From positions 60,899 through 124,898 of IMG/VR virus record IMGVR_UViG_3300031463_000001: 64,000 nt of DNA; one strand, written 5' to 3'. Under the pieces are notes generated by a model. That model had not been told where the DNA came from. It saw only the letters and a program-made list of their open reading frames with translations, and did no database searches. The stretch is from a virus. Positions 524-32,897 of the stretch are shown here, one piece after another. The translations under genes and the position numbers were made by a program. Within the stretch, counting starts at the first letter, position 1, and every line of letters starts with the position of its first letter.

Positions 524-769
524 TTACTTCTTTAAGTTTTCTAGTTCCTTAACATATAAATGACCAAATAAAGGTTCTTGTAAAAGAAAAGATTCTATTT
601 TAGGAGGTAATCTTTTTCGGAACGTTACAAAATGCCTATAAAGAAGTCGAGGTTCTTTTATGTTGGGTAATAATGCTGAAGCAATTTTTTTATTTTTTTC
701 AATTAAAGCTTTCTCGAATACTTTAATTATGTTGTTATTATCTTTTAAGAGATCTGAAATACGCATCAC
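524..769 (-). CDS. Short, degenerate member of the repeat-protein family
   Basis: N-cap RISDLLKD...ALIEKNKKIASALLP..KEP. Confidence 0.7.
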   Translation of the reverse strand: MMRISDLLKDNNNIIKVFEKALIEKNKKIASALLPNIKEPRLLYRHFVTFRKRLPPKIESFLLQEPLFGHLYVKELENLKK

Positions 770-790
770 AAAAAAATCAAAAAAGACAAA

Positions 791-1018
791 TCAAATGAAA
801 TCGTAAGGAGGTAAAAAACCTAATTCTTTAACTAGTTTTTCCTGAAGAGGTCGACTAATTTTATTTGTTTTAAAAAAGTATTTTAACCATGCTATTTCCC
901 AATAATTAGGATTATTATATTCTAGATTTCCATGCTTTCTTAAAGTTTGATTTTTTAAAAACCACTTTAAATCTTTCTTGATTTTATCAAAATAATTTAA
1001 ATTATTGTTCATCGACAA
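791..1018 (-). CDS. Hypothetical protein
   Basis: ORF overlapping the upstream gene on the same strand. Confidence 0.5.
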   Translation of the reverse strand: MSMNNNLNYFDKIKKDLKWFLKNQTLRKHGNLEYNNPNYWEIAWLKYFFKTNKISRPLQEKLVKELGFLPPYDFI

Positions 1019-1457
1019 ATAGTGTGGGGTAATCTTTTTTGAATTCGTTAAATTTATTTATTTGTTTTAGAAAAGATAAGTATTCTTTAAGATGAGTACT
1101 TTTAATTATTAAATTTTCAGCTAAAGGAAATCTGTCTTTTAAAATAGTTTTAGCATAATCAAGTGACATTTGAGAATTTGAAGTAGCTATTATGTTTTCT
1201 AATTCAATCCATCTTTCCTTTTTTACTTTAATTAAATAATCAAAAGCTAATATGCTAAACTTTACCAAAATTTGTTCTTTTTCTGGTGGTAACTTTATTT
1301 TTTTATAAATAGCTACCCTATAAATGATTTCAGGATCTTCAATATTTTTTATCAATTTTAAAAGAGTTTTTTTTGATAATCTCATAATTAAATCATAATT
1401 ATTTCGAAGTTCTTGTTCTATTAGTTGAGGATTCTTTAATAAGTTAGATAGATTCAT
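1002..1457 (-). CDS. Repeat-protein family member
   Basis: MNLSNLLKNP N-cap, YAKTILKDRFPLAE repeat, C-cap YLSFLKQINKFNEFKKDYP. Confidence 0.85.
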   Translation of the reverse strand: MNLSNLLKNPQLIEQELRNNYDLIMRLSKKTLLKLIKNIEDPEIIYRVAIYKKIKLPPEKEQILVKFSILAFDYLIKVKKERWIELENIIATSNSQMSLDYAKTILKDRFPLAENLIIKSTHLKEYLSFLKQINKFNEFKKDYPTLFVDEQ

Positions 1458-1495
1458 ATAATTTATTACAACAATATTTAAAATTATTTACCCGA

Positions 1496-1699
1496 TTAAT
1501 CTTTAGAGTACAAAAGATTTTTCAAATCCTCAAAAAACTTATTTTCTAGATTAGGAAATCGTTTCTTTATTTCGTTTATATTTGAATTAATTAAAACATT
1601 TCTGATTTGGCGAGCTAGTAAAAAAGATCCATAAACATCCATTTCATTATATCTTAAAAGAATATTTGCGATATCTAAAAGAGAAATTTCATTTTTCAT
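1496..1699 (-). CDS. Hypothetical protein
   Basis: ORF with GAGGAG RBS at the end of the upstream gene. Confidence 0.55.
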   Translation of the reverse strand: MKNEISLLDIANILLRYNEMDVYGSFLLARQIRNVLINSNINEIKKRFPNLENKFFEDLKNLLYSKD

Positions 1700-1702
1700 T
1701 AA

Positions 1703-3888: not shown

Positions 3889-4095
3889 ATTTTATATACA
3901 AACCTTCCTTTTTTTAATCACCACAGGTAAACTTTTTTCTTTTTTAAGTAAAAAGAATTAATTTTTATTACATCTATTTTTTTACCATCCAAGTAAAGTT
4001 TAACAGTAGGAAATAAATTATCATTCCACAATATTTTTCCAATATAACTTTTTCCTTTCCATACAATATCAATTTTTCTTTTTTTCATAAACTCC

Positions 4096-5848: not shown

Positions 5849-7021
5849 TTAAAACAATGACTCAGGTAAATCAATATCTGCTTCTTCAATTTCTCCAGAT
5901 TGAGGTTTTATTCTTTTTTCTTTTTTAGATTTTTCTGTTTCTTCTTCCATCATTAAATTTTCATATTGATTTATTGATTTTAGAAACTCTAAATATTCTT
6001 TCCAACTTTCAATATCTCCTTTTATATAAGGTTCCCAAGAACGTTTTCTATCTTTAAGAACATTTTTAATATATTGGACAGCCCAATAAGGATTTTTCTT
6101 TATAATGTCTTCTCCTTTAGGAAATGGTCCTTTTAATATTTCTGTTGCATATCTATAAGAAAGTTCAGGATTTTGAGCAATTATATCTTCTCCCTCAGGA
6201 AAAGGTTCTTTGAAAAGTTCTGCATATCTAAATGCATTCTCTGGAGTAGAAGTAAATATATGTTTATATTGAAAGGGAGCAAAAGTTATTTCTTCTATAT
6301 ACCTAAAAGCAAGTTCAATATCTTGGGCAATAATTATTTCACCTTCAGGAAATGGGCCCTTTAAAATATCTTTAGCATAATTAAAAACATTTATTGGTGA
6401 GGTTGAATAAGGAGCAAGTAAATTAGCTTTTTCTATATCTTTATTTTCTAGAGCTTCTTGAAATTCTTTTTCAAGTTGGGATGAATTTGTTAATAAAGTT
6501 TTTAATGTAGGATCATTTAATTCAGGATGATCTTTATAAAACTCATTAAGTTTTCCCATTTTTTTAAGATTTTCTATATAGTCATATAAAACTTCTTTAT
6601 TCTTAATAATAGCTTTTTCACCCTCTTTAAATCTAAACCAAAATATTGTCGCATAATAATATGAATAAACTCCGCTAGAAGCAATAGCTGGTTCGCCTGG
6701 AGGCCATTTACGGTGTATGACATCTTTAGCATAAAGATAGCTATATTTACTACTTTTCATTATTTCTTTTTCACCTAATGGAAATCTTTCTCTTAATACT
6801 TTACGTGCATATTCATAACTTGTATCTGGACGAGAGGCTACAATTAATTCCTTTTTATAAGGAAGAGATTTTTGATTTTTTATGGCATAATTTAAAAGAT
6901 TATAAGGATCTTTAGAATACATATAAAGTTTATCCATCATTAACTCATCATTAGTTTCTATAGTTTTTTTAAAAACGTCCTCTAATTTATTTGGATCTTT
7001 TAACAAATCTTCTATATTCAT
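5849..7021 (-). CDS. Repeat-protein family member: two fused units plus an acidic tail
   Basis: N-cap, repeats and C-cap (NEFYKDHP), followed in frame by a second N-cap (ALENKDIEKANLLAP) and more repeats. Confidence 0.9.
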   Translation of the reverse strand: MNIEDLLKDPNKLEDVFKKTIETNDELMMDKLYMYSKDPYNLLNYAIKNQKSLPYKKELIVASRPDTSYEYARKVLRERFPLGEKEIMKSSKYSYLYAKDVIHRKWPPGEPAIASSGVYSYYYATIFWFRFKEGEKAIIKNKEVLYDYIENLKKMGKLNEFYKDHPELNDPTLKTLLTNSSQLEKEFQEALENKDIEKANLLAPYSTSPINVFNYAKDILKGPFPEGEIIIAQDIELAFRYIEEITFAPFQYKHIFTSTPENAFRYAELFKEPFPEGEDIIAQNPELSYRYATEILKGPFPKGEDIIKKNPYWAVQYIKNVLKDRKRSWEPYIKGDIESWKEYLEFLKSINQYENLMMEEETEKSKKEKRIKPQSGEIEEADIDLPESLF

Positions 7022-7742: not shown

Positions 7743-8186
7743 CTATACTTTATCTTTTACCTCTGGATGATCTTTTAAGAACTCATCTAGTTTACCTATC
7801 TCTTTTAAGAAATTAACATAATTATCTAACCAAATTGACTTTATTATTGTTTTTTCTCCTTTAATGAATCTATCTCTCAAAATATTCTCTGCATAATAAA
7901 ATCCCACTATAGCATCTTTGGACATAATATCCTCACCTTTAGGAAAGGGATCTCTTATAACATCTCTGACATACCAATAAGTCACATCTGCATCTTGGAT
8001 AATGATATCTTCCCACTCATCTTTAATTTTACTTTTAACTATATCTCTAGCATATTTATAAGTTAACCTTGGATCTTTAACTATAGGAATTAAAGTTTCT
8101 GCTACTTCTTTATTTTCCTTGTCAATAGCTTTTTCCAAAACTTTTATTACTTTATCTTTATTTTTTAACAGATCAGATATATTCAT
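7743..8186 (-). CDS. Repeat-protein family member
   Basis: Same N-cap, repeats and C-cap. Confidence 0.92.
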   Translation of the reverse strand: MNISDLLKNKDKVIKVLEKAIDKENKEVAETLIPIVKDPRLTYKYARDIVKSKIKDEWEDIIIQDADVTYWYVRDVIRDPFPKGEDIMSKDAIVGFYYAENILRDRFIKGEKTIIKSIWLDNYVNFLKEIGKLDEFLKDHPEVKDKV

Positions 8187-8774
8187 ATTTTAACCTTTGG
8201 ATAATCTTTATAGAACTCATTTAGTTTACCTCGTGATTTAAGAAAGCTGATATACTCTTTACGATAATTTCTAATAATAGCCCCTTCACCTTTAATGAAT
8301 CTATCTTTTAATACATTTGTAGCATAATAATAAGAATAATAAGCATTTAAAGCAATAGTATTTTCTCCTTTAATGAATCTATCTTTTAGCACATCTTGAG
8401 CATAATGATATGAACAAAAAACATCCCTAGCAATAGCATTCTCCCCTTTAGGGAATGGTTTCTGTAAAACCTTTTTTGCATATACATAAGAATATTCATA
8501 ATCTTGAGCAATAGCCTCCTCTCCTTTAAGGAATGGTCCATGTAAAACATAGTTAGCATAATAGTATGAATTTTGTGAATCCTGAGCAATAATATCTTCC
8601 CACTCATCTTTAATTTTACCTTTAACTATATCACTTAGCATATAAATAAGTTAACCTTGGATCTTTGGCTAGTGGAATTAAAGTTTCTGCTAATTCTTTA
8701 TTTTTCTTATCAATAGCCATTCTTAATACTTTATTAACTTTATCAGAATCTTTTAACAAATCCACTATATTCAT
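8183..8774 (-). pseudogene. Repeat-protein family member with a +1 frameshift near 8633
   Basis: ATG at 8774 gives MNIVDLLKDS...LTYLYAK then TGA; removing one base from GCTAAGTGATATA restores YAKDIVKGKIKDEW. Confidence 0.8.
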
Positions 8775-8805
8775 AATTTAACCTCTGGATGATCTTTTAA
8801 GAACT
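8748..8805. repeat. 58-bp gene-junction repeat, first of four near-identical copies (others around 9286, 9639 and 10151; weaker copies at other junctions)
   Basis: ATCTTTTAACAAATCCACTATATTCATAATTTAACCTCTGGATGATCTTTTAAGAACT; the 35-nt part starting TCATAATTTAACC is identical at 8771, 9286, 9639 and 10151. Confidence 0.9.
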
Positions 8806-9289
8806 CATTTAATTTATTTATCTCTTTTAAGAAATTAACATAATCAGTCAAATAAAGAAGATCACTAATTATAATCTTCTCACCTTTAATGAATCTATCC
8901 TTTAAAATTTTTCTAGCATACAAATATGACTCAGTAGCAAAATGGGAGATAACCTCTTCCCCTTTAGGAAAGGGACCTTTTAAAATATTCTCAGCATAAT
9001 TAAGAGCATTTATATGATCGCTAGCAATAGCCTCTTCTCCTTTAGGCCACGGACCTTTTATAATTTTAGCAACATACATATGAGTGACATGAGTGTTTTG
9101 AATAATGATATCTTCCCACTCTTCCTTTACTCTACCTTTAACTATTCTTTCTGCATAACGTTCTACCAACCATGGATTTTTGACTATTGGGATTAAAGCT
9201 TCGGCTAATTCTTTATTTTTCTTATTAATAGCGTCTTCCAAAATTTCTCTTGTTTTATTTGGATCTTTTAACAAATCCACTATATTCAT
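8771..9289 (-). CDS. Repeat-protein family member
   Basis: N-cap, repeats and C-cap; ATGA overlaps at both ends. Confidence 0.92.
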   Translation of the reverse strand: MNIVDLLKDPNKTREILEDAINKKNKELAEALIPIVKNPWLVERYAERIVKGRVKEEWEDIIIQNTHVTHMYVAKIIKGPWPKGEEAIASDHINALNYAENILKGPFPKGEEVISHFATESYLYARKILKDRFIKGEKIIISDLLYLTDYVNFLKEINKLNEFLKDHPEVKL

Positions 9290-9642
9290 AATTTAACCTC
9301 TGGATGATCTTTTAAGAACTCATCTAATTTATTTATTTCTTTAAGAAAATCCACATACTCATTTAACCACATTGACTTTATTATTACACCTTCTCCTTTA
9401 ATAAAAGGTTTATGTAAAATGTCTATAGCATAGGAACAAGAACTTTGCGGATCTTGAGCAATAATATTTTCCCACTCATCTTTAACTGGTTTTTTTATTA
9501 GGTAAGCATAACCATAAGTAAGCCAAGGATCTTTGGCCACTGGAACCAACAATTCGGCTAATTCTTTATTTTTATCTGCAAGGGCATCTTCTAATATTTC
9601 TCTAGCTTTATCAGAATCTTTTAACAAATCCTCTATATTCAT
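9286..9642 (-). CDS. Repeat-protein family member (short)
   Basis: N-cap, two repeats, C-cap. Confidence 0.92.
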   Translation of the reverse strand: MNIEDLLKDSDKAREILEDALADKNKELAELLVPVAKDPWLTYGYAYLIKKPVKDEWENIIAQDPQSSCSYAIDILHKPFIKGEGVIIKSMWLNEYVDFLKEINKLDEFLKDHPEVKL

Positions 9643-10154
9643 AATTTAACCTCTGGATGATCTTTTAAGAACTTATTTAATTTATGTTTCCTTTTAAGAA
9701 ACCAAACATAATCATCCAACCAAATTGACTTTATTATTACATTTTCTCCTTTAACAAATCTACCCTTTGATACATCCTTAGCATAATAATAAGAATAATA
9801 AGGATCTCTAGCAATAACATCCTCTCCTCTAATAAAAGGTTTATGTAAAACGTCTTTTGCATATATATAAGAATATTCAGAATTTTGAGCAATAGCATCT
9901 TCTCCTTTAGGCCAAGGTCCATGTAAAATATCTCTAGCATAATAGCAAGAACTCCATGGGTCGTGAGCAATGATATCCTCCCATTCATTTTTGATTTTTC
10001 CTCCAACTATTTTTCTAGCATATAAATGAGTTAAATAAGAATCTTTGACGATTGGAATTAGAGCCTCAGCCAATTCTTTATTTTTATTTACTAATGCATA
10101 TTTCAAAACTTCTCTAGCTTTATTTGAATCTTTTAACAAATCCACTATATTCAT
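9639..10154 (-). CDS. Repeat-protein family member
   Basis: N-cap, repeats and C-cap. Confidence 0.92.
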   Translation of the reverse strand: MNIVDLLKDSNKAREVLKYALVNKNKELAEALIPIVKDSYLTHLYARKIVGGKIKNEWEDIIAHDPWSSCYYARDILHGPWPKGEDAIAQNSEYSYIYAKDVLHKPFIRGEDVIARDPYYSYYYAKDVSKGRFVKGENVIIKSIWLDDYVWFLKRKHKLNKFLKDHPEVKL

Positions 10155-10589
10155 AATTTAACCTCTGGATGATCTTTTAAGAACTCATCTAGTTTACCTA
10201 TTTCTTTAAGAAACTTAATATACACATTTAACCACCTTGACTTTATTATTACACTCTCTCCTTTAATGAATCTTCTTTTTAATATATCTATAGCATAATA
10301 ATAAGAATGCCATGGATCTCTAGCAATAACATCCTCTCCTTTAATAAAAGGTTTATGTAAAACAGTATAAGCATAAGCATATTGCGGAATCAATATCTTG
10401 GGCAATTATATCTTCCCACTCATCCTTAATTTTACCTTTAACTATTTCTCTAACATATAAATAAGTTAAATAAGGATGTTTGGCTATAGGAATTAACATT
10501 TCAGCTAATTCTTTATTTTTATTTTCAATAGCCATTTCTAATGCTTCCTCTAATTTATTTGGATCTTTTAATAAATCTACTATATTCAT
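10151..10589 (-). pseudogene. Repeat-protein family member with a +1 frameshift near 10382
   Basis: Split into ORFs 10353-10589 and 10151-10405; removing one A from TCCGCAATATGCT gives QDIDSAYAYAYTVL, which matches the repeat register. Confidence 0.8.
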
Positions 10590-11023
10590 ATAGCCTCTGG
10601 ATGATCTTTTAAGAACTCTTCTAATTTATTTATTTTACTAAGAAACGTCTTATATTTATTCAACCAAAACTCCTTACTTACGATAACCTCTTCTCCCTCA
10701 ATGAATCTACCTTTTAGAATTTCTTTAGCATAACTATATGAGTATCCATCATTTTTAGCAAAAATCTTTTCACCTTTAGGGAATGGTCCTTTTAAAACAT
10801 TATACGCATAGGCATAGGACATATATATGCTTTGAATAAGTATATCTTCCCACTCATCTTTGATTTTTCCTTTAACTATATTACCTGCATAATAATAAGT
10901 TAACCAAGGATCTTTAACTATAGGAATCAATATCTCGGCTAATTTTTTGTTTTTATCATCAATGATTTTTTCTAATACTTTTTTGACTTTATTCGAATCT
11001 TTTAATAAATCTTCTATGTTCAT
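10586..11023 (-). CDS. Repeat-protein family member (first gene of the array)
   Basis: N-cap, repeats and C-cap EEFLKDHPEAI. Confidence 0.92.
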   Translation of the reverse strand: MNIEDLLKDSNKVKKVLEKIIDDKNKKLAEILIPIVKDPWLTYYYAGNIVKGKIKDEWEDILIQSIYMSYAYAYNVLKGPFPKGEKIFAKNDGYSYSYAKEILKGRFIEGEEVIVSKEFWLNKYKTFLSKINKLEEFLKDHPEAI

Positions 11024-11786: not shown

Positions 11787-12350
11787 TTAGGAAGGATTTT
11801 TTTCTAGTTCGAATTTTACCTCAGGCCAATTAGATATTGAAGTATTTAGAGTAGGATAATCTTTTAAGAAATCGTTTAATTTATTTATTTTTTTAAGGAA
11901 TTTTATATATTGATTTAACCAATAACGATAATTGATTAGTTTAGGCTCCCACACAAGAAACCTATCTTGTAATATTTCCTCAGTATAGGCTAGTGCGAAA
12001 TAGGGATCGTTTGAGATAGTTTCTTCTCCCATTTCCCATCTATGTTTAAGAACATATGCAGAATAAAAAAAAGCATCTTTTACTTGAGTGGCTATAATAG
12101 GTTCACCTTTAGGGAAAGGTTTATCTATATATCTAGCATAAAGATAGGAACTTTGGGAATCTCTAGCTACTATATCTTCCTCGTTATTGGTTAGAGATTG
12201 ATTTAAATCATGAGCAAATTTATATGTTAAATAAGGATCTTGAACTAGTGGGATTAAAGATTTGGCTAGCGAAATATCTTTATTACTGATAGTTTTAACG
12301 AGTAAAAGTCTTAGTGTTTCTTTATCTTTTAATAGATGGGACAGGTTCAT
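11787..12350 (-). CDS. Repeat-protein family member
   Basis: Likely start MNLSHLLKD at 12350; KPFPKGEPIIA repeats; LNDFLKDYP. Confidence 0.88.
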   Translation of the reverse strand: MNLSHLLKDKETLRLLLVKTISNKDISLAKSLIPLVQDPYLTYKFAHDLNQSLTNNEEDIVARDSQSSYLYARYIDKPFPKGEPIIATQVKDAFFYSAYVLKHRWEMGEETISNDPYFALAYTEEILQDRFLVWEPKLINYRYWLNQYIKFLKKINKLNDFLKDYPTLNTSISNWPEVKFELEKNPS

Positions 12351-12358
12351 AAAATCCT

Positions 12359-12730
12359 CTACCAAAGAAAACGAACATTTTCCAAATCCGATAAATCCTT
12401 TTTTATATGAGGCTCAATTACGTATTCAAATATTCTATATTTATTAGCTAGGCCACTACCAAGTTTCGAGATTAGGAAAAGGTTTTGTGGATGTGATTTT
12501 ATATAGTGTCTTAACTTAGAGATTTCATACTTATAAACAGCCGAATACTCATCAGGTTTAAAGAAAGCGTTATCTTCATTAGAAGGTTTCTTTTTTGTTA
12601 TAAAACCATAGGTATTAGGTTCTTCTCTTAAACTAGCTCCTCCACCTAAACCTATTCTTAAATAATTATCTCCGTAGACAAAGATGAAGTTGGGATGGGT
12701 TCTTAGAAATTCTCTAGTTATTTTTTTCAT
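12359..12730 (-). CDS. Conserved phage protein of unknown function (small alpha/beta fold)
   Basis: FVYGDN..R.G.GG.A.LR.EPN..G..TKK motif, recalled from other phage hypotheticals; probable start MKKITREF. Confidence 0.6.
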   Translation of the reverse strand: MKKITREFLRTHPNFIFVYGDNYLRIGLGGGASLREEPNTYGFITKKKPSNEDNAFFKPDEYSAVYKYEISKLRHYIKSHPQNLFLISKLGSGLANKYRIFEYVIEPHIKKDLSDLENVRFLW

Positions 12731-14851: not shown

Positions 14852-15457
14852 TTATATTTCTTCTACTTTCTTTTCAATCAATTCCAATTTTTTATTTAAT
14901 ATATCTGTTCCAAACTCTTTAACAAACTCTTCCAATTTCTCTATCCTTTTTAAATATTTAAGATAAGGATATAAGAAACTTCCATCCTTTATTAACAACT
15001 TTTCATCCTCCTTATTCATCCTTTCTTTTTTATCATCATCCATATAATAAGTAACTATTTCAAAGAACTTATTTTCATCGAATACCCTATTTCTTTTCCC
15101 TTCGACTATTTCTTTTATAGTGAGGTACATATTGGAGATTGGATTCAAAGTATATTCGTTACAATTCTCAAAGTTGAATCCTTCTGGATCCGCCCAATAA
15201 TCAACCTCTCTTATATATTCTCCTTTCAATATCTCTACCACTTTTTCTTTCTTTAATCCTTTCATTAATTTCTCCGTTGGTACATCACTACATATAAACA
15301 TAGCCACTATTAATTTAACCTCATCTCCATCTTCCCCCTCATAGTCATTTATTAACGTCTTTAACTCTTTTTTTACTTCCAAGGCCTCCTTATCATATAA
15401 GACAAAGTCTCCTAAGGGGCCACTATTCATTACTTTTATTTTTTCTTCTATATTCAT
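14852..15457 (-). CDS. Acidic protein carrying the family C-cap (divergent member)
   Basis: YLKYLKRIEKLEEFVKEF; AGGAGG RBS. Confidence 0.7.
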   Translation of the reverse strand: MNIEEKIKVMNSGPLGDFVLYDKEALEVKKELKTLINDYEGEDGDEVKLIVAMFICSDVPTEKLMKGLKKEKVVEILKGEYIREVDYWADPEGFNFENCNEYTLNPISNMYLTIKEIVEGKRNRVFDENKFFEIVTYYMDDDKKERMNKEDEKLLIKDGSFLYPYLKYLKRIEKLEEFVKEFGTDILNKKLELIEKKVEEI

Positions 15458-15622: not shown

Positions 15623-16237
15623 TTAGAGATCCTCACAATTATATTCCTTTTCTAATTTGTTTACTAATTTTTTCATAGATTTAGGAAAGAAATTTTTTTC
15701 ATAGAAACATCTTATTACTGGATAGATGGATGGATATTCTTTTACAAATCTATCTAATTCGTTTTTCTTTTTTAATAATTTAAAATAATATTCAGCATAA
15801 CTATATCTTATATGAAGTACATCACTATCTTCTGTCACCTCAAAATCATCTAAATTATCTACTAGATAATCTACTATCATTTTTTCTACGTTCTTATCTT
15901 TTATATCTACTTCAAAATTACTTATATAATATAATGCTGTCTCAGGATCTTTCAATACTAAATCTTTTCCGATCCAATGTTCTGGATCTGGCTCAAGGTC
16001 AAAATTATACATATAAGCCCATGCGAGGTCTGGATCAGATAACATTTGTTTCATTTTATTTTCAGGGAATTCAATATCTATATTGTAATATATTTTATAG
16101 AGTAAGTTAGGATCATTTATGTGAGGTAACAAAGCTTTAATCATATCCTCTTTTTCTTTTTCTTCGTCATTGCTAAATATCTCCCAAACTACATCTTCTA
16201 TTTTTTTGGAGTCTCTTAATAACTCTTCTGTATTCAT
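15623..16237 (-). CDS. Divergent acidic repeat-family member
   Basis: MNTEELLRDS...ALLPHINDPNLLY N-cap; YFKLLKKKNELDRFVKEYP C-cap. Confidence 0.75.
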   Translation of the reverse strand: MNTEELLRDSKKIEDVVWEIFSNDEEKEKEDMIKALLPHINDPNLLYKIYYNIDIEFPENKMKQMLSDPDLAWAYMYNFDLEPDPEHWIGKDLVLKDPETALYYISNFEVDIKDKNVEKMIVDYLVDNLDDFEVTEDSDVLHIRYSYAEYYFKLLKKKNELDRFVKEYPSIYPVIRCFYEKNFFPKSMKKLVNKLEKEYNCEDL

Positions 16238-19104: not shown

Positions 19105-19329
19105 CCTTGATGATACAAAAGTTTATGCTACTCCCCAAAAACACCCATCAAGGAACACGCTCCACACAAAAACTCAAAAGGGACTCAACACAAAAGGAAC
19201 CTGGTTAATGGTTATGACCCCACGTGAATTTTTTTGCTAAAAAAATCCACTAAAGGGGGAAAATACATCAAAAAAAAGAAGGTAATGATTTTCTTTTTAT
19301 CGTTAAGGATTTATATATTGGAGGTAGTT

Positions 19330-21416: not shown

Positions 21417-21430
21417 TTGAATTCACCTCC

Positions 21431-23115: not shown

Positions 23116-23204
23116 AAGCTTCCTCCAATAATGATATTACACATATGGTTTAGTTTTTTTTGCCCTTTCGAATTATCGTTTATGATTTAAATAGAAGAAT
23201 TAGT

Positions 23205-23813
23205 ATGAAAAAAGAAAGTAAAATAAATATTGTTGATTTATTAAAAGATCCAAATAAAGCTAAAGAAGTATTAACAATGGCTATAGATAATGGAAATAAA
23301 GAATTAGCCGAATTGTTAATTCCTATAGCCAAAGATCCCTATTTAACGTATAGTTATGCCTACTTAATAAATAAACCAGTTAAAGATGAGTTTGAAGATA
23401 TTATTGCTAAAAATTCTTTTTATTCTTATCAATATGCATTAGATATTTTACAGGGACCTTTCCTAAAAGGAGAAGATGCTATCTCTAAAAGTTCAGAATA
23501 TTCTTATAGATATGCCTTAAATATTTTACATAAACCATTTCCTAAGGGTGAGGATGCCATTACTAAAAATTCTTTTTATTCTTATCATTATGCTGCAGAT
23601 GTTTTACATAAACCATTTCCTAAAGGAGAAAATACTATTGCTGGAGATTCTTTTTATTCTTATAATTATGCTAAAGATATATTAAAAGATAGATTTATTA
23701 AAGGAGAAAAAACAATAATAAATTCAGAATGGTTAAATGATTATATTAGGTTTCTTAAAGAGATAAATAAACTAGATGAATTCTTAAATGATCATCCAGA
23801 GGTTAAATTATGA
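23205..23813 (+). CDS. Repeat-protein family member
   Basis: MKKESKINIVDLLKDP; NSFYSYxYA repeats; LDEFLNDHPEVKL. Confidence 0.92.
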   Translation: MKKESKINIVDLLKDPNKAKEVLTMAIDNGNKELAELLIPIAKDPYLTYSYAYLINKPVKDEFEDIIAKNSFYSYQYALDILQGPFLKGEDAISKSSEYSYRYALNILHKPFPKGEDAITKNSFYSYHYAADVLHKPFPKGENTIAGDSFYSYNYAKDILKDRFIKGEKTIINSEWLNDYIRFLKEINKLDEFLNDHPEVKL

Positions 23814-24166
23814 ATATATCAAAGTTGTTAAAAGATCCAAAAAAATTTGATGATTTTTTGTATCATGAAATTCAACATAACGATTTTTCAACATCTAGAA
23901 TACTTATTCCTTATACAAAAAATCCAGCAATTATTCACGCTTTTCTAAAAAAATTTAAAGTTAAAATTCCTTCATTAGAAAATTTAATTACTCAAAATCC
24001 ACATTTGGCATTAAGTTATATTGATAATGTTATTAAAGATCGCTGGCTTCCTGGAGAAGAAGCCATTCTTAAAAATGAAGAAGATTTGGAATATTATAAA
24101 GACTTCCTTAAATCTATTGGTAAACTAGACGAATTCTTAAAAGATCATCCAGAGGTTAAGAATTGA
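23810..24166 (+). CDS. Repeat-protein family member
   Basis: MNISKLLKDP...LDEFLKDHPEVKN. Confidence 0.9.
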   Translation: MNISKLLKDPKKFDDFLYHEIQHNDFSTSRILIPYTKNPAIIHAFLKKFKVKIPSLENLITQNPHLALSYIDNVIKDRWLPGEEAILKNEEDLEYYKDFLKSIGKLDEFLKDHPEVKN

Positions 24167-24221: not shown

Positions 24222-25034
24222 ATGAAAAAACTTATAAAATTAATAAAAGAAGGTAAGATAAATATTGGAGAAATATTAAAAAATCCTTTAATATTAAAGA
24301 GTTACAAATGGGAAGATGTTGAAGCATATGGAAAAGAAGTACTTGAAAGAACCCAAAAAACTGAAAAAGAATTAGAAGAAACCTTAACTGAAGCGTGGGA
24401 AAAATATGGTAATGAATATTTTTTAATTCCAATTGAGGAGTTGGGTTTAAATGAGTCTGTAATTAGATTACTTAAAAGTGAAGGAATTAAGAATGTAAGT
24501 GAATTAGCTTCTCTTACTGAGGATGATTTAAGAAATGTAGTGTATCTATCTGAAAAAACTATAGATCTTATAAAAGAAAAATTGAAAGAAATGGGATTAG
24601 AACTAGGAGAAGGAAAAGAGTTTGATGTTGAAAAAATGAATCCCTATAGAATAAATATCAAATTTGAGGAGTTATTGCATAATAAAGATGAAGAAAGGGC
24701 TACAAAACTTTTACCTTACATAGATAAACCAGACTTATTAGTTAATTATGCAATTAATTTTAATACTAAACTACCCCCAGAACAAGAACAAATAGTTGCT
24801 AAAAATCCTTATGCTTCATTAGCTTATGCACTTAAAGTATTAAAAGATAGATTTATTCTGGGAGAACCTTCAATAGTAAAAATGTATGATGAGATGAGAA
24901 GAAAGATGCCCCAAAAAGGAGAAGAAAACCTAATGGCTACTATACAGGCTCTTATTCATGAATATTTTATAATGCTAAATTCAGTAGGTAAGCTGGAAGA
25001 TTTTATGAAAGATTATCGGAATCTTTTTCATTAA
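24222..25034 (+). CDS. Repeat-family member carrying an RNA polymerase alpha-CTD-like domain
   Basis: PIEELGL...IRLLKSEGIKNVSELASLTEDDL...LSEKTIDLIKEKLKEMGLEL matches the alpha-CTD HhH consensus; flanked by family caps. Confidence 0.85.
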   Translation: MKKLIKLIKEGKINIGEILKNPLILKSYKWEDVEAYGKEVLERTQKTEKELEETLTEAWEKYGNEYFLIPIEELGLNESVIRLLKSEGIKNVSELASLTEDDLRNVVYLSEKTIDLIKEKLKEMGLELGEGKEFDVEKMNPYRINIKFEELLHNKDEERATKLLPYIDKPDLLVNYAINFNTKLPPEQEQIVAKNPYASLAYALKVLKDRFILGEPSIVKMYDEMRRKMPQKGEENLMATIQALIHEYFIMLNSVGKLEDFMKDYRNLFH

Positions 25035-29447: not shown

Positions 29448-29450
29448 GTT

Positions 29451-29465: not shown

Positions 29466-29476
29466 CTTTAAAGAAG

Positions 29477-30119: not shown

Positions 30120-30123
30120 AAGA

Positions 30124-30171
30124 GTGAACATAGGTGAATTCTTAAAAGATCATTCAGAGGTAGAATTATGA
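30124..30171 (+). other. Collapsed empty family cassette (15-codon mini-ORF)
   Basis: GTG AAC ATA GGT GAA TTC TTA AAA GAT CAT TCA GAG GTA GAA TTA TGA = MNIG joined directly to EFLKDHSEVEL*, overlapping the next ATG. Confidence 0.75.
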
Positions 30172-30728
30172 ACATAGAAGATTTATTAAAACATCCAGAA
30201 AAAGCAAGAACGTTTTTGGACAAGGCTATTTTTGGTGGAAACAAAAAATTAGCTGAAATTTTAATTCCAATAGTTAAACATCCTTATTCAACTTATTTAT
30301 ATGCAAAAGAAATAGTTAAGGGAAAAATAAAAGATGAATGGGAATATATTATTGCTCAAGATCCTTATGCTTCTCTTGATTATGCCTTTAACATTCTAAA
30401 AGGTCCATTTCCAAAAGGAGAAGATGCAATTGCTAGAGATTCATATACTTCTTATAATTATGCTGTTATTTTAGAAAGACCGTGGCCAAAGGGAGAGGAT
30501 GTTATTGCTAGAGATCCAAGATTTGCTTATTATTATGCTAGATATGTGTTGAAGGATAGATTTCCAAAAGGAGAAAAAGAAATTATTAGTAGTGAGATTA
30601 CTGATCCGGGTAATGATTTTGGTGAAAATGGTGAATCAGGTTTTTCTTCTTATGTTAAGTTTTTGAAATCAATAAATAAATTAGACGAATTCTTAAAAGA
30701 TCATCCGGAGGTAAAAGATAGAGTATGA
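30168..30728 (+). CDS. Repeat-protein family member
   Basis: N-cap, repeats and C-cap. Confidence 0.92.
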   Translation: MNIEDLLKHPEKARTFLDKAIFGGNKKLAEILIPIVKHPYSTYLYAKEIVKGKIKDEWEYIIAQDPYASLDYAFNILKGPFPKGEDAIARDSYTSYNYAVILERPWPKGEDVIARDPRFAYYYARYVLKDRFPKGEKEIISSEITDPGNDFGENGESGFSSYVKFLKSINKLDEFLKDHPEVKDRV

Positions 30729-31189
30729 ATATAGAAGATTTATTAAAACATCCAGAAAAAGCACAAATGGCTTTGCGAGAAGCTATTTGGAATAATGATG
30801 CAAAATTAGCAGAAGCTTTAATACCAATAGCAAGAGATCCACATTTAACTCTTAATTATGCTCAAAATATAGTTAAGGGAAAAGTTAAAATTGAGTTTGA
30901 AGATATTATAGCCCGAGATGGAGAAGCTTCTTTTTATTATGCTTATGAAGTCTTAAATGGTCCCTTTCCTAGAGGAGAATATGCAATTGCTGAAAATGAA
31001 GATCTTTCATTAGATTATGCGATTAAAGTATTAAAGGATAGATTTCCAAAAGGAGAAGAAGCAATTATATATGTAGCTTTAAAGCATGATGATGATGTAT
31101 ATTTATGGAGATATACGGATTTTCTTAAAGAGATTGGTAAACTAGACGAATTCTTAAAAGATCATCCTGAGGTAAAAGATATAGAATGA
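30725..31189 (+). CDS. Repeat-protein family member
   Basis: N-cap, repeats and C-cap. Confidence 0.92.
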   Translation: MNIEDLLKHPEKAQMALREAIWNNDAKLAEALIPIARDPHLTLNYAQNIVKGKVKIEFEDIIARDGEASFYYAYEVLNGPFPRGEYAIAENEDLSLDYAIKVLKDRFPKGEEAIIYVALKHDDDVYLWRYTDFLKEIGKLDEFLKDHPEVKDIE

Positions 31190-31710
31190 ACATAGGTGAT
31201 TTACTAAAAGAAGGAGCGGATAGTGTTTTCGATAAAGCAATAAAAGAAAAAAATAAAGAGTTAGCAGATTTTCTAATTAAGTTTATAAAAGATCCTTTTC
31301 TTCTTTTCGATTATGCAGCTAAATTTAATGAAAAATTAAAACCTGAATTTGAAGATATTATTGCTAAAAATTGGGATACATCCTTTTATTATGCACTTCA
31401 TTTTAAAAATCCTTTTCCTAAAGGTGAAGATATAATGGCAAAAGATTTGTATACTGCCTATCATTATGCAGCTGATGTTTTACAAGGACCATTTCCAAAA
31501 GGTGAACCTATAATTTCTCAATTTCCATATTCATCATATTATTATGCTAAAAGGATATTGCATGATAGATTTCCAAAAGGAGAAAAAGCAATTATTGATA
31601 GCAAAGATCAAGAAAATGATGAAGATTATTTTAGACTCTATATTAAATTTTTAAAATCCATTAATAAACTAGATGAATTCTTAAAAGATCATCCAGAAGT
31701 TAAATTATGA
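31186..31710 (+). CDS. Repeat-protein family member
   Basis: N-cap, repeats and C-cap. Confidence 0.92.
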   Translation: MNIGDLLKEGADSVFDKAIKEKNKELADFLIKFIKDPFLLFDYAAKFNEKLKPEFEDIIAKNWDTSFYYALHFKNPFPKGEDIMAKDLYTAYHYAADVLQGPFPKGEPIISQFPYSSYYYAKRILHDRFPKGEKAIIDSKDQENDEDYFRLYIKFLKSINKLDEFLKDHPEVKL

Positions 31711-32897
31711 ATATAGAAGATTTGTTAAGGGATCCAAATAGGGTTAAAGAATTATTAGATGAAGTTATTAATAATGGAAACAAAAAATTAGCTAAAGTTT
31801 TACTTCCATTAGTTGAAAAAGAGTCAACTAGATATGGTTACATAGAGTCATTATTGAAGGGTAGAGAAATTGTAGCTGATTTCGAATCACGATTACCTGT
31901 TTTGATTAAACAGTATAAGGCTCACAATCCAGAATTATCTGAAAGTGAAGCCGAAGCTAAGATTCGTGAATTGAATCAATATGATCCAACGGGTTTAAAA
32001 GCTACATATACACCCTGGATTGTAAAACAGTATTTGGAAGATTCATCATTCGATTTGGATTTAGCTAAACAAGTTTTGAAGGATCTTGAAAAGGTTGTTT
32101 TACATAAGAAACTACCTGCAGGATTCGATATTGGAAAGTTTAACTTAAATGAATTGAAATCGAAACTTCAACCAATACTTGAGCCAATTGAAGAGTCGGA
32201 AAAGGAGAAGGAAGAGATTAAAAAAGAAGGTCCAATAGGTCAATCATTAATCTCTGAAGAGGGTTATGAAATTATTGAAGTTACTGATCCAAAAGATAGT
32301 GTAAGATTCTGTAAAAAATATCATATTAGGTCTTGGTGTGTAAAGGATTTGGAGTATGCAGAGTTTTACGTTCCTCTCTACTTCGTTTTAAAGAATGGTT
32401 CGCCAAAAGGTGCATGGTCAGAATATGATAAAAAGCTCAGTAATCGACAAGATTTAGATGAGTGGGATCTTGATGAAAGAGATTTTATAGCAAAACTATT
32501 AAGAAAAGTTAGACCTAATTTAACAATAAAGACAAAAGAAGAAATGAAAAGGGAAGCTTTGAATTCTCCGGAGAAAGCTTATAATTATGCATTTAAGGTT
32601 AAAGGAAGATTTCCAGAAGGAGAACCTATAATAGCAAAAAGTCCTAAATATGCTTATTATTATGCAAGAGATGTTATTAAAGAAAGATTTCCTAAAGGGG
32701 AGCCTGCTATAGCAAAAGATTTTTATTTTGCGTGTCTGTATGCAAAATTTGTTATTAAAGGAAGATTTTTAGAAGGAGAAGCTGTAATAATAAATTCAAA
32801 TTATTTTGATGATTATGTTGAGTTTCTTAAAGAAATAAATAAACTAGATGAGTTCCTAAAAGATCACCCAGAAGTTAAAAATTACAAGTCTTTTTAA
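31707..32897 (+). CDS. Repeat-family member with a large inserted domain
   Basis: N-cap, then about 230 aa of unrelated sequence (DPTG...YTPWIVK...SWCV...PLYFV), then repeats and C-cap. Confidence 0.88.
   Translation: MNIEDLLRDPNRVKELLDEVINNGNKKLAKVLLPLVEKESTRYGYIESLLKGREIVADFESRLPVLIKQYKAHNPELSESEAEAKIRELNQYDPTGLKATYTPWIVKQYLEDSSFDLDLAKQVLKDLEKVVLHKKLPAGFDIGKFNLNELKSKLQPILEPIEESEKEKEEIKKEGPIGQSLISEEGYEIIEVTDPKDSVRFCKKYHIRSWCVKDLEYAEFYVPLYFVLKNGSPKGAWSEYDKKLSNRQDLDEWDLDERDFIAKLLRKVRPNLTIKTKEEMKREALNSPEKAYNYAFKVKGRFPEGEPIIAKSPKYAYYYARDVIKERFPKGEPAIAKDFYFACLYAKFVIKGRFLEGEAVIINSNYFDDYVEFLKEINKLDEFLKDHPEVKNYKSF

What the first reader, a model, noticed from the sequence alone, without database searches (positions are those of the whole stretch)
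524..32897. Expanded family (~24 genes) of capped Tyr-rich helical repeat proteins resembling a natural binder library
Seen: about 24 loci on both strands share some or all of the N-cap MNIxDLLKDP...KNKELAExLIP..KDP, a variable number (up to about 6 per unit) of a ~25-aa repeat (YAxxVLxGPFPKGEDAIAxDxxxSxx) and the C-cap YxxFLKxIxKLDEFLKDHPEVKL. Framework positions are constant, while the positions around S-x-x-Y-A-x-x vary widely and are rich in Tyr, Trp, Phe and Ser. Established: capped solenoids with aromatic variable faces (ankyrin, HEAT, armadillo) are binding scaffolds. Inference: a diversifying arsenal of host-protein binders for anti-defence or host takeover. I do not recognise a named family.
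Basis: partly seen in the sequence, partly recalled or inferred. Interest (0 to 1): 0.88.

Follow-up and report, generated by a model that had tools for sequence, protein, structure and literature searches.

The report
Phage arrays of tyrosine-faced repeat proteins
A hot-spring phage carries about three dozen copies of a small helical-repeat protein whose exposed, tyrosine-rich positions and copy number change quickly between strains; this looks like a natural panel of protein binders from a large, unnamed, phage-only family whose targets are still unknown.

Summary
My own HMMs of the N-cap, the 26-aa repeat and the C-cap hit 25 ORFs in the window. These make 24 loci once two frameshifted genes are merged and one collapsed mini-ORF is added. 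Twelve more ORFs lie upstream in the same 124.9-kb phage genome.

AlphaFold gives a confident alpha-solenoid (pLDDT 96.9). It has no specific match in PDB, Pfam, NCBIfam or PHROGs. The automatic label HTH_35 / "lambda repressor-like" is a partial-match artefact.

The repeat belongs to a very large family: 5980 representatives at 50% identity. It is found almost only on phage and metagenome contigs. Most relatives are single genes with an unknown ~260-aa N-terminal domain plus repeats, and window gene 31707-32897 keeps that form. Another phage holds an independent 25-gene array.

Repeat positions 1, 4, 7, 8 and 23-26 are hypervariable and enriched in Tyr and Trp. Strains with 95-97% identical flanks differ by gene gain and loss, chimeras and in-register unit deletions.

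Positive selection is not shown: dN/dS is 0.70 at variable sites against 0.28 in the framework. The target, the timing of expression and the host are all unknown. A binder panel is the best reading, and packaging into the virion is a live rival. The scan met this family before on another phage (e1-5757437).

The parts
524..769 (-). N-cap-only ORF (81 aa) followed by a non-repeat tail; a divergent or remnant member
   Evidence: N-cap HMM 45 bits, no unit, no C-cap
1002..1457 (-). Divergent member, 151 aa: N-terminal motif, 1 unit, C-cap
   Evidence: Unit 20-35 bits, C-cap 31 bits; N-terminal motif
5849..7021 (-). 390-aa double module: an in-frame fusion of two family genes, with an internal C-cap at aa 144-168 and then a second N-cap-like stretch with more units
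   Evidence: N-cap 32 bits, 5 units, internal C-cap 30 bits; 96.8% nt identical orthologue in L052
7018..7689 (-). Canonical member, 223 aa, 5 units plus a degenerate first unit; this is the protein that was modelled
   Evidence: N-cap 78, C-cap 70 bits, 5 units; AF2 pLDDT 96.9, pTM 0.88
7743..8186 (-). Canonical member, 147 aa, 2 units
8183..8774 (-). Member broken by a 1-nt frameshift after the N-cap (N-cap ORF 8631-8774; 4 units plus C-cap ORF 8183-8641)
   Evidence: the same sequence in a contig of run X1 with 0 differences (record 3)
8771..9289 (-). Canonical member, 172 aa, 3 units
9286..9642 (-). Canonical member, 118 aa, 1 unit
   Evidence: 93% nt orthologue in L052
9639..10154 (-). 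Canonical member, 171 aa, 3 units
10151..10589 (-). Member broken by a frameshift (N-cap ORF 10353-10589; 2 units plus C-cap ORF 10151-10405)
   Evidence: run X1 contigs cover it with 0 differences (records 7 and 8)
10586..11023 (-). Canonical member, 145 aa, 2 units; first gene of the leftward tandem array
11787..12365 (-). Divergent member, 192 aa, 2 units, C-cap
   Evidence: N-cap 38, C-cap 43 bits
14060..14785 (-). Divergent member, 241 aa, 3-5 units (RFEKGE type), C-cap
14852..15457 (-). 201-aa protein that carries only the C-cap
   Evidence: C-cap HMM 22 bits; no Pfam family at E<=0.001
15623..16237 (-). 204-aa acidic protein with the N-terminal motif, degenerate DPxxAxxY helices and a weak C-cap
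   Evidence: C-cap 12 bits; N-terminal motif
23160..23813 (+). Canonical member, 217 aa, 4 units; short N-terminal extension before the N-cap
23810..24166 (+). Divergent member, 118 aa, 1 unit
24222..25034 (+). Fusion of an RNA polymerase alpha-CTD-like helix-hairpin-helix domain with a family module (N-cap-like stretch, 1 unit, weak C-cap)
   Evidence: PF03118 E 4.9e-9, 36.2 bits against cut-off 23.8, profile positions 8-67 of 67; unit 19-28 bits, C-cap 11 bits
29477..30119 (+). N-cap joined to an unrelated C-terminal domain. Here it is split at a T9 run (N-cap ORF 29477-29605, then ORF 29664-30119). In strain L088 the N-cap reads on into the homologue of the start of 29664-30119 in one ORF, which is in turn frame-broken further downstream
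   Evidence: N-cap 45 bits; sequence; L088 ORFs 309-908 and 868-1290
30124..30171 (+). Collapsed family gene: a 15-codon mini-ORF that joins the first 4 codons of an N-cap to the last 11 of a C-cap
   Evidence: translation VNIGEFLKDHSEVEL*
30168..30728 (+). Canonical member, 186 aa, 3 units
30725..31189 (+). Canonical member, 154 aa, 2 units. Strain L088 carries a version that lacks exactly two units and ends with the C-terminus of gene 31707-32897
31186..31710 (+). Canonical member, 174 aa, 3 units
   Evidence: 95% nt orthologue in L053 and L088
31707..32897 (+). 396-aa member of the widespread form: N-cap, a ~230-aa domain shared with most distant relatives (NTD; helices plus a small alpha/beta part), 3 units, C-cap
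   Evidence: NTD HMM E 3e-27; AF2 pLDDT 86.4; units and caps

Best explanation
These genes encode a phage-specific, so far unnamed family of small soluble alpha-solenoid proteins. Each protein is a stack of 26-residue units (a 12-residue helix, a PFPKGE turn and a 7-residue helix) between a lineage-specific N-cap and C-cap.

The core-facing residues are fixed. The helix start, positions 4, 7 and 8 on one side of the long helix, and the loop before it are hypervariable and rich in Tyr, Trp, Asp and His. The most likely function is a panel of protein-binding modules with different specificities. They would be made in the infected cell and aimed at host or competitor proteins.

The panel is kept diverse in four ways:
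- recombination between near-identical gene junctions, which gains or loses whole genes;
- recombination between units, which changes unit number in register;
- fusion of neighbouring genes;
- decay by frameshift.

Shown here: the family, the predicted fold, the variable-site pattern and composition, the restriction to phages, independent expansions, and strain-level turnover. Inferred: that the proteins bind other proteins, and that the targets are host proteins.
For: - Family and caps: 37 ORFs in the genome, 25 of them in the window; 87 units.
- Fold: AF2 pLDDT 96.9, pTM 0.88, with alternating 12- and 7-residue helices. Structure searches give only generic solenoid matches: Foldseek PDB best E 0.23 and VIA best Z 7.3.
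- Variable sites: positions 1, 4, 7, 8 and 23-26 have 2.5-3.65 bits; Tyr is 3.2x and Trp 2.8x background, while Ile, Leu and Val are depleted (0.28-0.40x). The independent array L010 has its highest entropies at positions 4, 26 and 8, with 7 and 1 (1.99 bits each) next.
- No uniform charge: pI 4.65-9.99.
- Substitution rates: dN/dS is 0.70 at variable codons, 0.28 at framework codons and 0.25-0.41 in the caps, from 11 close pairs.
- Turnover: the flanks are 95-97% identical, but the arrays are rearranged, with chimeric genes and exact one-unit deletions.
- Junctions: 65-68 of 70 nt are identical, with exact runs of 41-64 nt, at four junctions. There is also a collapsed mini-ORF.
- Distribution: 5980 representatives at E<=0.001. 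In 185,579 species genomes only 3 of 108 were confirmed, all on small MAG contigs. The nearest Atlas clusters by features, and 7 of 10 rows by structure, are 80-100% viral where taxa are on record.
- Copy number: 3 matches each in three 192-234 kb phage records, against 47 and 14 in two array-bearing records.
- No reverse transcriptase in the genome, so diversification is not by a diversity-generating retroelement.
Against: - No binding partner, expression data or host is known.
- Pooled dN/dS at variable sites is below 1, so relaxed constraint explains it as well as diversifying selection does.
- The one-face claim rests on sequence periodicity only. The variability-moment test over the whole helix was not significant (1508 of 10000 permutations), and model coordinates could not be inspected.
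- Genomic contexts are mixed and include virion modules.
- The caps are about 84-90% identical in protein, and the N-terminal decapeptide heads proteins that lack the repeats. This hints at a shared function beyond capping.
- The paralogues are old: synonymous sites are near saturation. The diversity is therefore not recent.
Confidence: 0.5

Rival explanations
1. The proteins are packaged inside the capsid as internal or core proteins and are ejected with the DNA. The conserved N-terminal decapeptide or N-cap would act as a capsid-targeting signal. They may still be binders that act on the host at the moment of entry. The comparison is with T4 internal proteins, which share a short N-terminal targeting sequence and vary between T-even phages (recalled, not from a call).
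For: - In the T4-like locus L024, the block between the head maturation protease (phrog_207, E 2e-57) and a scaffold-position gene plus the major head protein (phrog_138, E 3e-94) holds six family ORFs and four other small ORFs, all on one strand.
- In L016, L011 and L029 the family genes follow the major head protein and a homing endonuclease.
- Neighbour families recur: gp23-type capsid protein in 7 loci and prohead protease in 6.
- In this genome four members lie between an HNH endonuclease and the tail sheath gene, on the late strand.
- The decapeptide M-x-I-S-D-L-L-K-x-P also heads non-repeat proteins.
Against: - Most members of this genome lie among replication and accessory genes, not virion genes.
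- Other neighbour families are a helicase (10 loci), DnaB (6) and PhoH (6).
- In T4-like phages the spaces near head genes are also common insertion sites, often next to homing endonucleases.
- No protease cleavage site or proteomic evidence is available.
- Distant relatives lack this N-cap.
Confidence: 0.2
2. The proteins form an adaptor library. The conserved caps dock all paralogues to one common partner, for example a protease or AAA+ machine such as the AAA_5 / VWA-metallopeptidase pair encoded between the arrays. The variable faces recruit different targets to it. This would be analogous to poxvirus ankyrin proteins with a conserved C-terminal F-box-like motif (recalled).
For: - The caps are far better conserved than the units: aa identity 0.84 (first 10 residues) and 0.90 (C-cap core) against 0.45-0.50 in the units.
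- Caps occur alone on other proteins: C-cap only at 14852-15457, and N-cap plus another domain at 29477-30119.
- The N-terminal decapeptide alone heads non-repeat proteins upstream in the genome.
- An AAA_5 ATPase (17734-18819) and a DUF2201 VWA-like protein with a putative metallopeptidase domain (16430-17737) lie between the arrays.
Against: - No partner has been identified.
- The caps are lineage-specific, and the L010 array has quite different caps. Any hub would have to differ between lineages.
- Conserved caps are also expected simply for folding and solubility of short solenoids.
Confidence: 0.1
3. The proteins have a structural or bulk role with no specific binding, for example scaffold, filler or decoy. 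The variable positions are merely unconstrained surface residues that drift.
For: - dN/dS at variable sites is 0.70, not above 1.
- The paralogues are old, with saturated synonymous sites.
- 2 of 24 loci are frameshifted, and further loci are fragments or remnants.
Against: - Free drift on an exposed surface in this AT-rich genome should favour Lys, Asn, Ile and Phe. What is seen is a 3.2x excess of Tyr and 2.8x of Trp with Ile at 0.28x.
- The same pattern recurs in an unrelated array.
- Many intact paralogues are kept in several lineages, and orthologues are retained at 93-97% identity between strains.
Confidence: 0.12
4. The proteins are transcription regulators or sequence-specific nucleic-acid binders. 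This is the reading behind the automatic HTH_35 / 'lambda repressor-like' label. An alternative version is a PUF-, TALE- or PPR-like one-unit-one-base code.
For: - The whole-protein HTH_35 score is 39.6 bits against a cut-off of 25 for 7018-7689. Several homologues carry that Pfam label or the JGI name.
- Aromatic variable residues could stack on bases.
- One member is fused to an alpha-CTD-like domain.
Against: - The HTH_35 match covers only profile positions 33-49 of 75 and is summed over units. In the 20 HTH_35 rows listed for 30 long relatives no single stretch passes.
- The model is a solenoid, not a five-helix HTH.
- There are only 1-5 units per protein and no uniform positive charge (pI 4.65-9.99).
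- No Pfam match to PUF, PPR or TAL families at E<=1.
Confidence: 0.04

Closest known systems
HEAT-like / PBS-lyase-type alpha-solenoids and the artificial alphaRep binder library built on them (PMC3754942 and PMC5703948; I saw only the search listing and abstracts)
   Same: Short two-helix units are stacked into a capped solenoid. The framework is constant and a few surface positions per unit are randomised to make binders. Both come from thermophile-associated settings.
   Different: - The unit here is 26 aa, against about 31 aa as I recall.
- No Pfam HEAT, HEAT_2 or HEAT_PBS match at E<=1.
- Structure matches are only generic (Z up to 7.3).
- These are natural phage paralogue arrays, not a designed library.
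Expanded ankyrin-repeat gene families of poxviruses, giant viruses and Wolbachia (for example PMC3563639, listing and abstract only), including the poxvirus form of variable repeats plus a conserved C-terminal F-box-like motif (recalled)
   Same: A virus or symbiont genome carries tens of paralogous repeat proteins with variable surfaces and variable repeat number, thought to bind host proteins. The terminal module is conserved.
   Different: - The repeat is different: 26 aa with two helices and no beta-hairpin, against 33 aa.
- No Ank or PRANC Pfam match.
- The host is a prokaryote.
- One distant relative (P0129) carries true ankyrin repeats next to these units.
Leucine-rich repeat variant (LRV, PF01816)
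   Same: Very short (about 24 aa) all-helical units form a solenoid. It appears among weak structural neighbours: Atlas row 9, TM 0.58 by query, and BFVD rows named LRV at E 0.9-2.
   Different: No Pfam LRV match at E<=1. TM by target is only 0.27. The signature motif is different (YA..VL.GPFPKGE).
T4 internal proteins (IPI-III) and other capsid-targeted, injected proteins (recalled)
   Same: A short conserved N-terminal peptide heads otherwise diverse proteins. The genes vary strongly between related phages, and some relatives lie in head-gene clusters.
   Different: There is no sequence or fold relation. Packaging and cleavage are untested, and most copies here lie outside virion modules.
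Pfam HTH_35 (PF13693) / NCBIfam SfsB (NF007670), the names that automatic pipelines attach
   Same: A 17-residue stretch of each unit resembles profile positions 33-49.
   Different: The domain is never matched end to end. The NCBIfam score is 28 bits against a cut-off of 150. The predicted fold is different.

Membership tests
Pfam HTH_35 (PF13693), Ner/SfsB-like helix-turn-helix | End-to-end match to the ~75-position domain | tested here: not met
   The best stretch covers profile positions 33-49 of 75. In the 20 HTH_35 rows listed for 30 long relatives, 0 single stretches pass; the score is a sum over units.
Pfam HTH_35 (PF13693), Ner/SfsB-like helix-turn-helix | Compact lambda-repressor-like helical bundle fold | tested here: not met
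   The AF2 model is a 17-helix solenoid of alternating 12- and 7-residue helices, pLDDT 96.9. NCBIfam SfsB scores 28.1 bits against a cut-off of 150.
HEAT / HEAT_PBS / ARM alpha-solenoids | Sequence match to a curated HEAT or ARM-type repeat model | tested here: not met
   No such family at E<=1 for the 10 window proteins scanned.
HEAT / HEAT_PBS / ARM alpha-solenoids | Structural superposition clearly above background | tested here: inconclusive
   Best VIA Z is 7.3 (AP-3 subunit, 204 residues aligned, rmsd 5.5). This lies in the range the tool calls common for helical repeats. Foldseek best E is 0.23.
Ankyrin repeats | 33-aa unit with helix-turn-helix plus beta-hairpin; Pfam Ank models | tested here: not met
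   The period is 26 aa. There are no strands in the model and no Ank match at E<=1.
Leucine-rich repeat variant (PF01816) | Match to the LRV model or a clear structural match | tested here: inconclusive
   No Pfam match at E<=1. Only weak structural rows were found.
PUF / TALE / PPR code-type nucleic-acid binders | Units of 34-36 aa, usually 8 or more, with a basic binding surface | tested here: not met
   The units are 26 aa, 1-5 per protein. pI is 4.65-9.99. No Pfam match. PUF and PPR chains appear only as generic solenoid hits at Z about 5.
Diversity-generating retroelement targets | A reverse transcriptase plus a template/variable repeat pair | tested here: not met
   PF00078 finds nothing in the 124.9-kb genome at E<=0.01. 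The closest in-genome paralogue pair is 84% identical in DNA.
PcfJ-like (PF14284), considered for the N-terminal domain of 31707-32897 and its relatives | Match to the PcfJ model above its cut-off | tested here: inconclusive
   Lead from the Atlas: clusters with PcfJ on 32-33% of members, score 0.91-0.92. Only 2 of 34 aligned relatives match, best E 0.054. There is no match in the window's own genome at E<=1.
GNAT acyltransferase fold, considered for the alpha/beta part (aa 176-273) of 31707-32897 | Full GNAT core with an acyl-CoA binding motif | tested here: inconclusive
   VIA Z is 5-7.5 over about 80-94 residues, only part of a GNAT core. Foldseek E is above 0.3. No Pfam acetyltransferase match.
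Capsid-targeted internal proteins (T4 IP type) | Presence in the virion and removal of the N-terminal peptide by the prohead protease | not testable with these tools
   Only the shared N-terminal decapeptide and the head-module neighbourhoods in relatives could be seen.

The most novel reading that the evidence does not exclude
The caps are functional address labels, not just solenoid caps. The family would be a phage-made library of binders that is either loaded into the capsid and injected with the DNA, or docked to one common phage machine. Each paralogue would then neutralise or redirect a different host protein, for example a defence protein, at the earliest moment of infection. Arrays would be reshuffled by recombination at near-identical junctions, and perhaps helped by neighbouring homing endonucleases, in line with the SegB-driven amplification of anti-defence loci reported in the abstract of PMC13096335.
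Probability: 0.2. Interest if true: 0.85.

Novelty: new variant of a known kind. Interest (0 to 1): 0.64.

Why it matters
Expanded, fast-changing repeat-protein families are a hallmark of host manipulation in poxviruses, giant viruses and intracellular bacteria. I know of no equivalent described for bacteriophages, and four full-text searches found none.

Here a 26-residue solenoid family with thousands of members is seen almost only in phages. It is wrongly labelled as a transcription regulator by automatic pipelines. It has expanded independently to 25-37 genes in at least two lineages.

If the proteins are binders, three things follow:
- They are a natural, thermostable, very small scaffold (118-223 aa) with a readable set of variable positions.
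- Their targets would point to host factors that matter in phage infection.
- Correcting the HTH_35 label would remove a systematic annotation error in viral metagenomes.

Tried and rejected
- Self-association. Complex prediction with two copies of the 223-aa protein and its alignment returned 'no answer' (score 0.00 in two runs). I take nothing from this either way.
- RNA evidence. The look-up of sequencing runs listed no RNA holder, so expression is untested.
- Promoters. Sigma-70-type scans gave fewer sites than shuffles: 70 against 96.4 and 66 against 87.3. They are uninformative in this AT-rich DNA.
- Structured RNA. Rfam gave 0 matches in the window at gathering thresholds. No tRNA was found.
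- Host inference. I searched with the IS605-type TnpB gene (2255-3367). Its relatives reach 88% identity but are nearly all unnamed metagenome proteins; the only organism names, at 38-43% identity, are MAG labels (an archaeon, a Patescibacteria bacterium). MAG labels on family-bearing contigs (Nanopusillaceae, Aenigmatarchaeota, Omnitrophota, Pacearchaeota) sit on contigs of 2.7-100 kb. I treat them as probable mis-binned viral contigs, not as host evidence.
- Habitat. Runs X2-X4 (hot springs metagenomes, three studies) hold 90-99% similar pieces when laid. Run X1 is labelled sediment metagenome.
- Helical variability moment. Not significant over the whole long helix: 1508 of 10000 permutations reach it.
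- Junction conservation. A genome-wide test over 18 paralogues showed only a modest excess of synonymous identity (N1-10: 0.80 against 0.62 expected; C-cap: 0.71 against 0.65). The near-identity is local to the 8771-10154 sub-array.
- N-terminal domain. A PcfJ or GNAT identity stayed inconclusive.
- Homing endonucleases. An HNH-like gene lies within 6 kb of family genes in 8 of 62 loci of 8 kb or more. There is no control, and some of these loci are redundant.
- Literature. Four full-text searches found no paper describing this family. Supplements were not consulted.
- Phage records. The INPHARED collection held one weak match: Salicola phage SCTP-2 gene 435, a hypothetical protein, 20% of the query.
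- 3D mapping.

Full report
CONTEXT. The window is the right half (60899-124898) of a single 124,898-bp virus contig. Its last 211 nt repeat its first 211 nt at 99.5% identity. GC content is 22-38%.

The window encodes these phage genes:
- a family-A DNA polymerase with many phage relatives;
- a superfamily-2 helicase, a Gat-QueC fusion, an AAA_5 ATPase next to a DUF2201 VWA-like/metallopeptidase protein, and a sigma-70 region-4-like protein at 21.6 bits, below the 24.1-bit cut-off;
- an IS605-type TnpB.

The left half of the genome holds portal, head-protease, major head, tail sheath and tape-measure genes. Related DNA is found in contigs of three hot-spring metagenome studies. The host is unknown.

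OBSERVATION. I built three HMMs from eight seed genes: N-cap, 26-aa unit and C-cap. Searched against all 546 ORFs of 30 aa or more, they hit 37 ORFs, 25 of them within window 524-32897. Two pairs of these are single genes interrupted by a 1-nt frameshift. A 15-codon mini-ORF at 30124-30171 joins the start of an N-cap to the end of a C-cap. An iterated unit HMM finds 87 units in 30 ORFs. The period is 26 aa, or 78 nt. Canonical genes have 1-5 units after a degenerate first unit and are 118-223 aa long. Neighbouring genes overlap by ATGA.

Special cases:
- a 390-aa in-frame fusion of two family genes (5849-7021);
- a fusion with an RNA polymerase alpha-CTD-like domain (24222-25034; PF03118, E 4.9e-9);
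- an N-cap on an unrelated domain (29477-30119; in strain L088 the N-cap reads on into that domain in one ORF);
- a protein with only the C-cap (14852-15457);
- a 396-aa gene with a large domain between the N-cap and the units (31707-32897).

The copies are not assembly artefacts. Their DNA identity is about 60-70%. Synonymous codon identity is close to the codon-usage expectation (0.63-0.71 observed, 0.57-0.65 expected). Contigs of run X1 reproduce them, frameshifts included, with 0 differences. X1 may be the source sample, so this is not fully independent.

VARIABLE AND FIXED POSITIONS. In 72 strong units Y5, A6, V/I9, L10, F/W14, K16, G17, E18 and I21 are nearly fixed. Positions 1, 4, 7, 8 and 23-26 carry 2.5-3.65 bits. 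At these eight positions the composition relative to the genome's other ORFs is:
- Tyr 13.7% against 4.3% (3.2x);
- Trp 2.8x, Asp 2.1x, His 1.9x;
- Ile, Leu and Val depleted to 0.28-0.40x;

On the model's 12-residue helix (unit positions 25 to 10) the fixed residues fall at 2, 5, 6, 9 and 10, and the variable ones at 26, 1, 4, 7 and 8. This is the pattern of one buried and one exposed side. A formal variability-moment test over the whole helix is not significant, however (1508 of 10000 permutations), and I could not inspect coordinates. The proteins have no uniform charge (pI 4.65-9.99).

FOLD AND FAMILY. AlphaFold2 with a 31-sequence alignment gives pLDDT 96.9 and pTM 0.88. The model has 17 helices: the cap helices at each end, and between them long (12-residue) and short (7-8-residue) helices in alternation.

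Searches for a known relative gave the following:
- Sequence search of PDB finds nothing at E<=1.
- Foldseek against PDB has no hit better than E 0.23.
- The exhaustive structural search peaks at Z 7.3 (AP-3 subunit, a Phytophthora LWY effector, TPRs, designed repeat proteins). The tool itself calls this range non-specific for helical repeats.
- In BFVD the best rows are two uncharacterised viral proteins. One has no name in the tables and the length (648 aa) of Salicola phage SCTP-2 gene 435. The other is from an uncultured Caudovirales phage, TM 0.55.
- Pfam gives only HTH_35, always as a short piece (profile positions 33-49 of 75) summed over units.
- NCBIfam gives SfsB at 28 bits against a cut-off of 150.
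- PHROGs gives phrog_28193, of unknown function.

The names 'HTH_35' and 'lambda repressor-like predicted transcriptional regulator' attached to relatives are therefore artefacts. The family is effectively unnamed.

DISTRIBUTION.
- A word-based search found 388 relatives at E<=0.001 among 4857 candidates of similar length.
- A profile search of 1.84 billion cluster representatives found 5980 at E<=0.001, 4004 at 1e-10 and 823 at 1e-30, up to 2253 aa long with 17 matched stretches.
- Only 3 of 108 candidates were confirmed in one genome each of 185,579 prokaryote species, all on MAG contigs of 2.7-18 kb.
- The ESM Atlas neighbours by features, and 7 of the 10 rows by structure, are 80-100% viral where taxa are on record; three structural rows are bacterial or mixed.
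- The N- and C-caps of this window occur only in this genome and in 12 loci (11 distinct, since L002 and L047 are one stretch) of the 125 loci held.

Most distant relatives have another form. Of 150 non-repeat segments of 120 aa or more, 88 form one homologous group, and 56 of those are N-terminal. This is a domain of about 260 aa with conserved DP..Y..W, KDIN.Y and G.GT.WCT motifs, followed by the units. Window gene 31707-32897 carries this domain (E 3e-27). Its model (pLDDT 86.4) shows helices plus a small alpha/beta part. That part resembles half a GNAT fold only weakly (Z up to 7.5 over about 90 residues; Foldseek E above 0.3). A PcfJ lead from the Atlas was not confirmed.

Large phage records of 192-234 kb have 3 matches each. 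The record of L010 has 47 and that of L002 has 14. L010 is an independent expansion. It holds 25 tandem ORFs with 141 units in 16.5 kb, with caps of its own. Its highest entropies are at positions 4, 26 and 8, with 7 and 1 next, and these positions are rich in Trp, Tyr and Glu.

EVOLUTION OF THE ARRAYS. Metagenome contigs L046, L051, L052, L053 and L088 come from close strains, with flanks 92-97% identical. Inside the arrays the content differs in several ways:
- L052 has, next to the conserved 390-aa gene, a 119-aa gene. Its N-part resembles the window's frameshifted gene 10353-10589, and its C-part equals the C-terminus of 7018-7689.
- L088 has a copy of gene 30725-31189 that lacks exactly the degenerate first unit and one canonical unit. 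It ends with the C-terminus of gene 31707-32897, and the gene order is permuted.
- L046 keeps both flanks but little of the four upstream genes.

In 11 close pairs (84-97% nt identity) Nei-Gojobori counts give these dN/dS values:
- variable codons 0.70 (47.2 non-synonymous, 13.8 synonymous changes);
- framework codons 0.28;
- N-cap 0.41, C-cap 0.25, other codons 0.33.

The variable sites are therefore 2.5 times less constrained, but omega above 1 is not shown. The N-cap has the highest dS (0.24) and, in some pairs, most of the differences. This fits exchange of N-caps between paralogues.

Four junctions (8774, 9289, 9642, 10154) are 65-68 of 70 nt identical, with exact runs of 41-64 nt, while the gene interiors are about 65-70% identical. 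Over all nine junctions the mean is 0.69. These junctions carry the end of the C-cap, the GAGGT ribosome-binding site, the ATGA overlap and the start of the N-cap. They are obvious substrates for gain and loss of whole genes. Short-read contigs break there, and alternative joints appear in run X1. The N-terminal D-L-L-K-D and the C-terminal E-F-L-K-D-H share an LKD-coding stretch, which explains the collapsed mini-ORF. No reverse transcriptase is present.

GENOMIC CONTEXT. In this genome the members lie in five clusters:
- one of four genes between an HNH endonuclease and the tail sheath gene, on the late strand;
- the others among replication and accessory genes on both strands.

Among relatives, the recurrent neighbours within 6 kb are a helicase (10 loci), ClpP (8), T4-type major capsid protein (7), prohead protease (6), DnaB (6) and PhoH (6). 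In L024 six family ORFs and four other small ORFs lie between the head maturation protease and the scaffold-position and major head genes. In L016, L011 and L029 the family genes follow the capsid gene and a homing endonuclease. No single context is conserved. The family behaves like accessory cargo of plastic regions, but the repeated link with head genes keeps a virion role open.

INTERPRETATION. The best-supported reading (about 0.5) is a panel of small protein binders. The supporting features are a rigid capped solenoid, a fixed core, Tyr/Trp-rich variable positions of the kind seen in binding sites, many intact paralogues, independent expansions, and rapid birth, death and reshuffling. 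The link to host defence or takeover is inference only.

The rivals are:
- virion-packaged, injected proteins addressed by the N-terminal peptide (about 0.2; compatible with binding);
- an adaptor library docked through the caps to a common machine (about 0.1);
- unconstrained surfaces of a bulk or structural protein (about 0.12);
- nucleic-acid binding or transcription regulation (about 0.04).

In principle the closest known systems are the natural HEAT-like repeats behind the alphaRep library and the ankyrin expansions of poxviruses, giant viruses and Wolbachia. Membership in any of these families failed or stayed inconclusive. An earlier follow-up in this scan (e1-5757437) described the same kind of array in an uncultured T4-like phage and reached a similar verdict. 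I did not re-examine that genome.

LIMITS. There is no expression, proteomic or binding evidence, and no host. The dN/dS values come from few changes, and recombination was not modelled. Of the papers cited, I saw only listings and abstracts.

Noticed in passing
window 63790-64000 and genome 1-211: The last 211 nt of the 124,898-bp contig repeat its first 211 nt at 99.5% identity. A gene also runs across the ends (window ORF 62856-63998 continues in genome ORF 60-608). The record is therefore probably a closed or terminally redundant genome, although it is classed 'linear' with 76% estimated completeness.
   Followed up: partly
genome 51539-52117, 52117-52689, 54278-54844, 54901-55236 (upstream of the window): The N-terminal decapeptide M-x-I-S-D-L-L-K-x-P also heads three paralogous acidic proteins and a further small protein. 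These lack the N-cap helices, the units and the C-cap. It may be a separate tag.
   Followed up: partly
window 16430-18819 (-): An AAA_5 (MoxR-like) ATPase lies next to a protein with a DUF2201 VWA-like domain and a putative metallopeptidase domain, between the family clusters. It is a possible partner machine, untested.
   Followed up: no
window 24222-25034 (+): A phage protein with an RNA polymerase alpha-subunit C-terminal-domain-like helix-hairpin-helix (PF03118, above the cut-off) is fused to a family module. It could tie one member to transcription.
   Followed up: no
genome 22481-23728; L016 7619-9286; L011 5624-7354; L029 8304-9119: HNH or homing endonuclease genes lie directly upstream of family genes in this genome and in several T4-like relatives. 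Overall 8 of 62 loci of 8 kb or more have one within 6 kb, with no control. Compare the SegB-driven amplification of anti-defence loci (PMC13096335, abstract).
   Followed up: partly
window 2-442 (-) and genome 58890-61340: Two adjacent paralogous proteins (377 and 419 aa) start with a family-like MNIY.ELKK motif followed by repeated helical segments. There was no Pfam match for the part inside the window. They may be another repeat family.
   Followed up: no
window 2255-3367 (-): An IS605-type TnpB gene sits inside the phage genome. Its relatives, up to 88% identical, are known only from metagenomes.
   Followed up: partly
window 37453-39411 (+): By eye, the RecA-like ORF (652 aa) looks interrupted by an intein-like insertion. 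In relatives L016 and L024 the portal genes carry HNH or intein insertions.
   Followed up: no
window 19234-20196 (+): A 320-aa protein has an internal MEIERILRDP start-like motif and its own ~27-aa helical repeats (VP..I.. type). It had no Pfam match above noise. It may be a further solenoid family of this phage.
   Followed up: no
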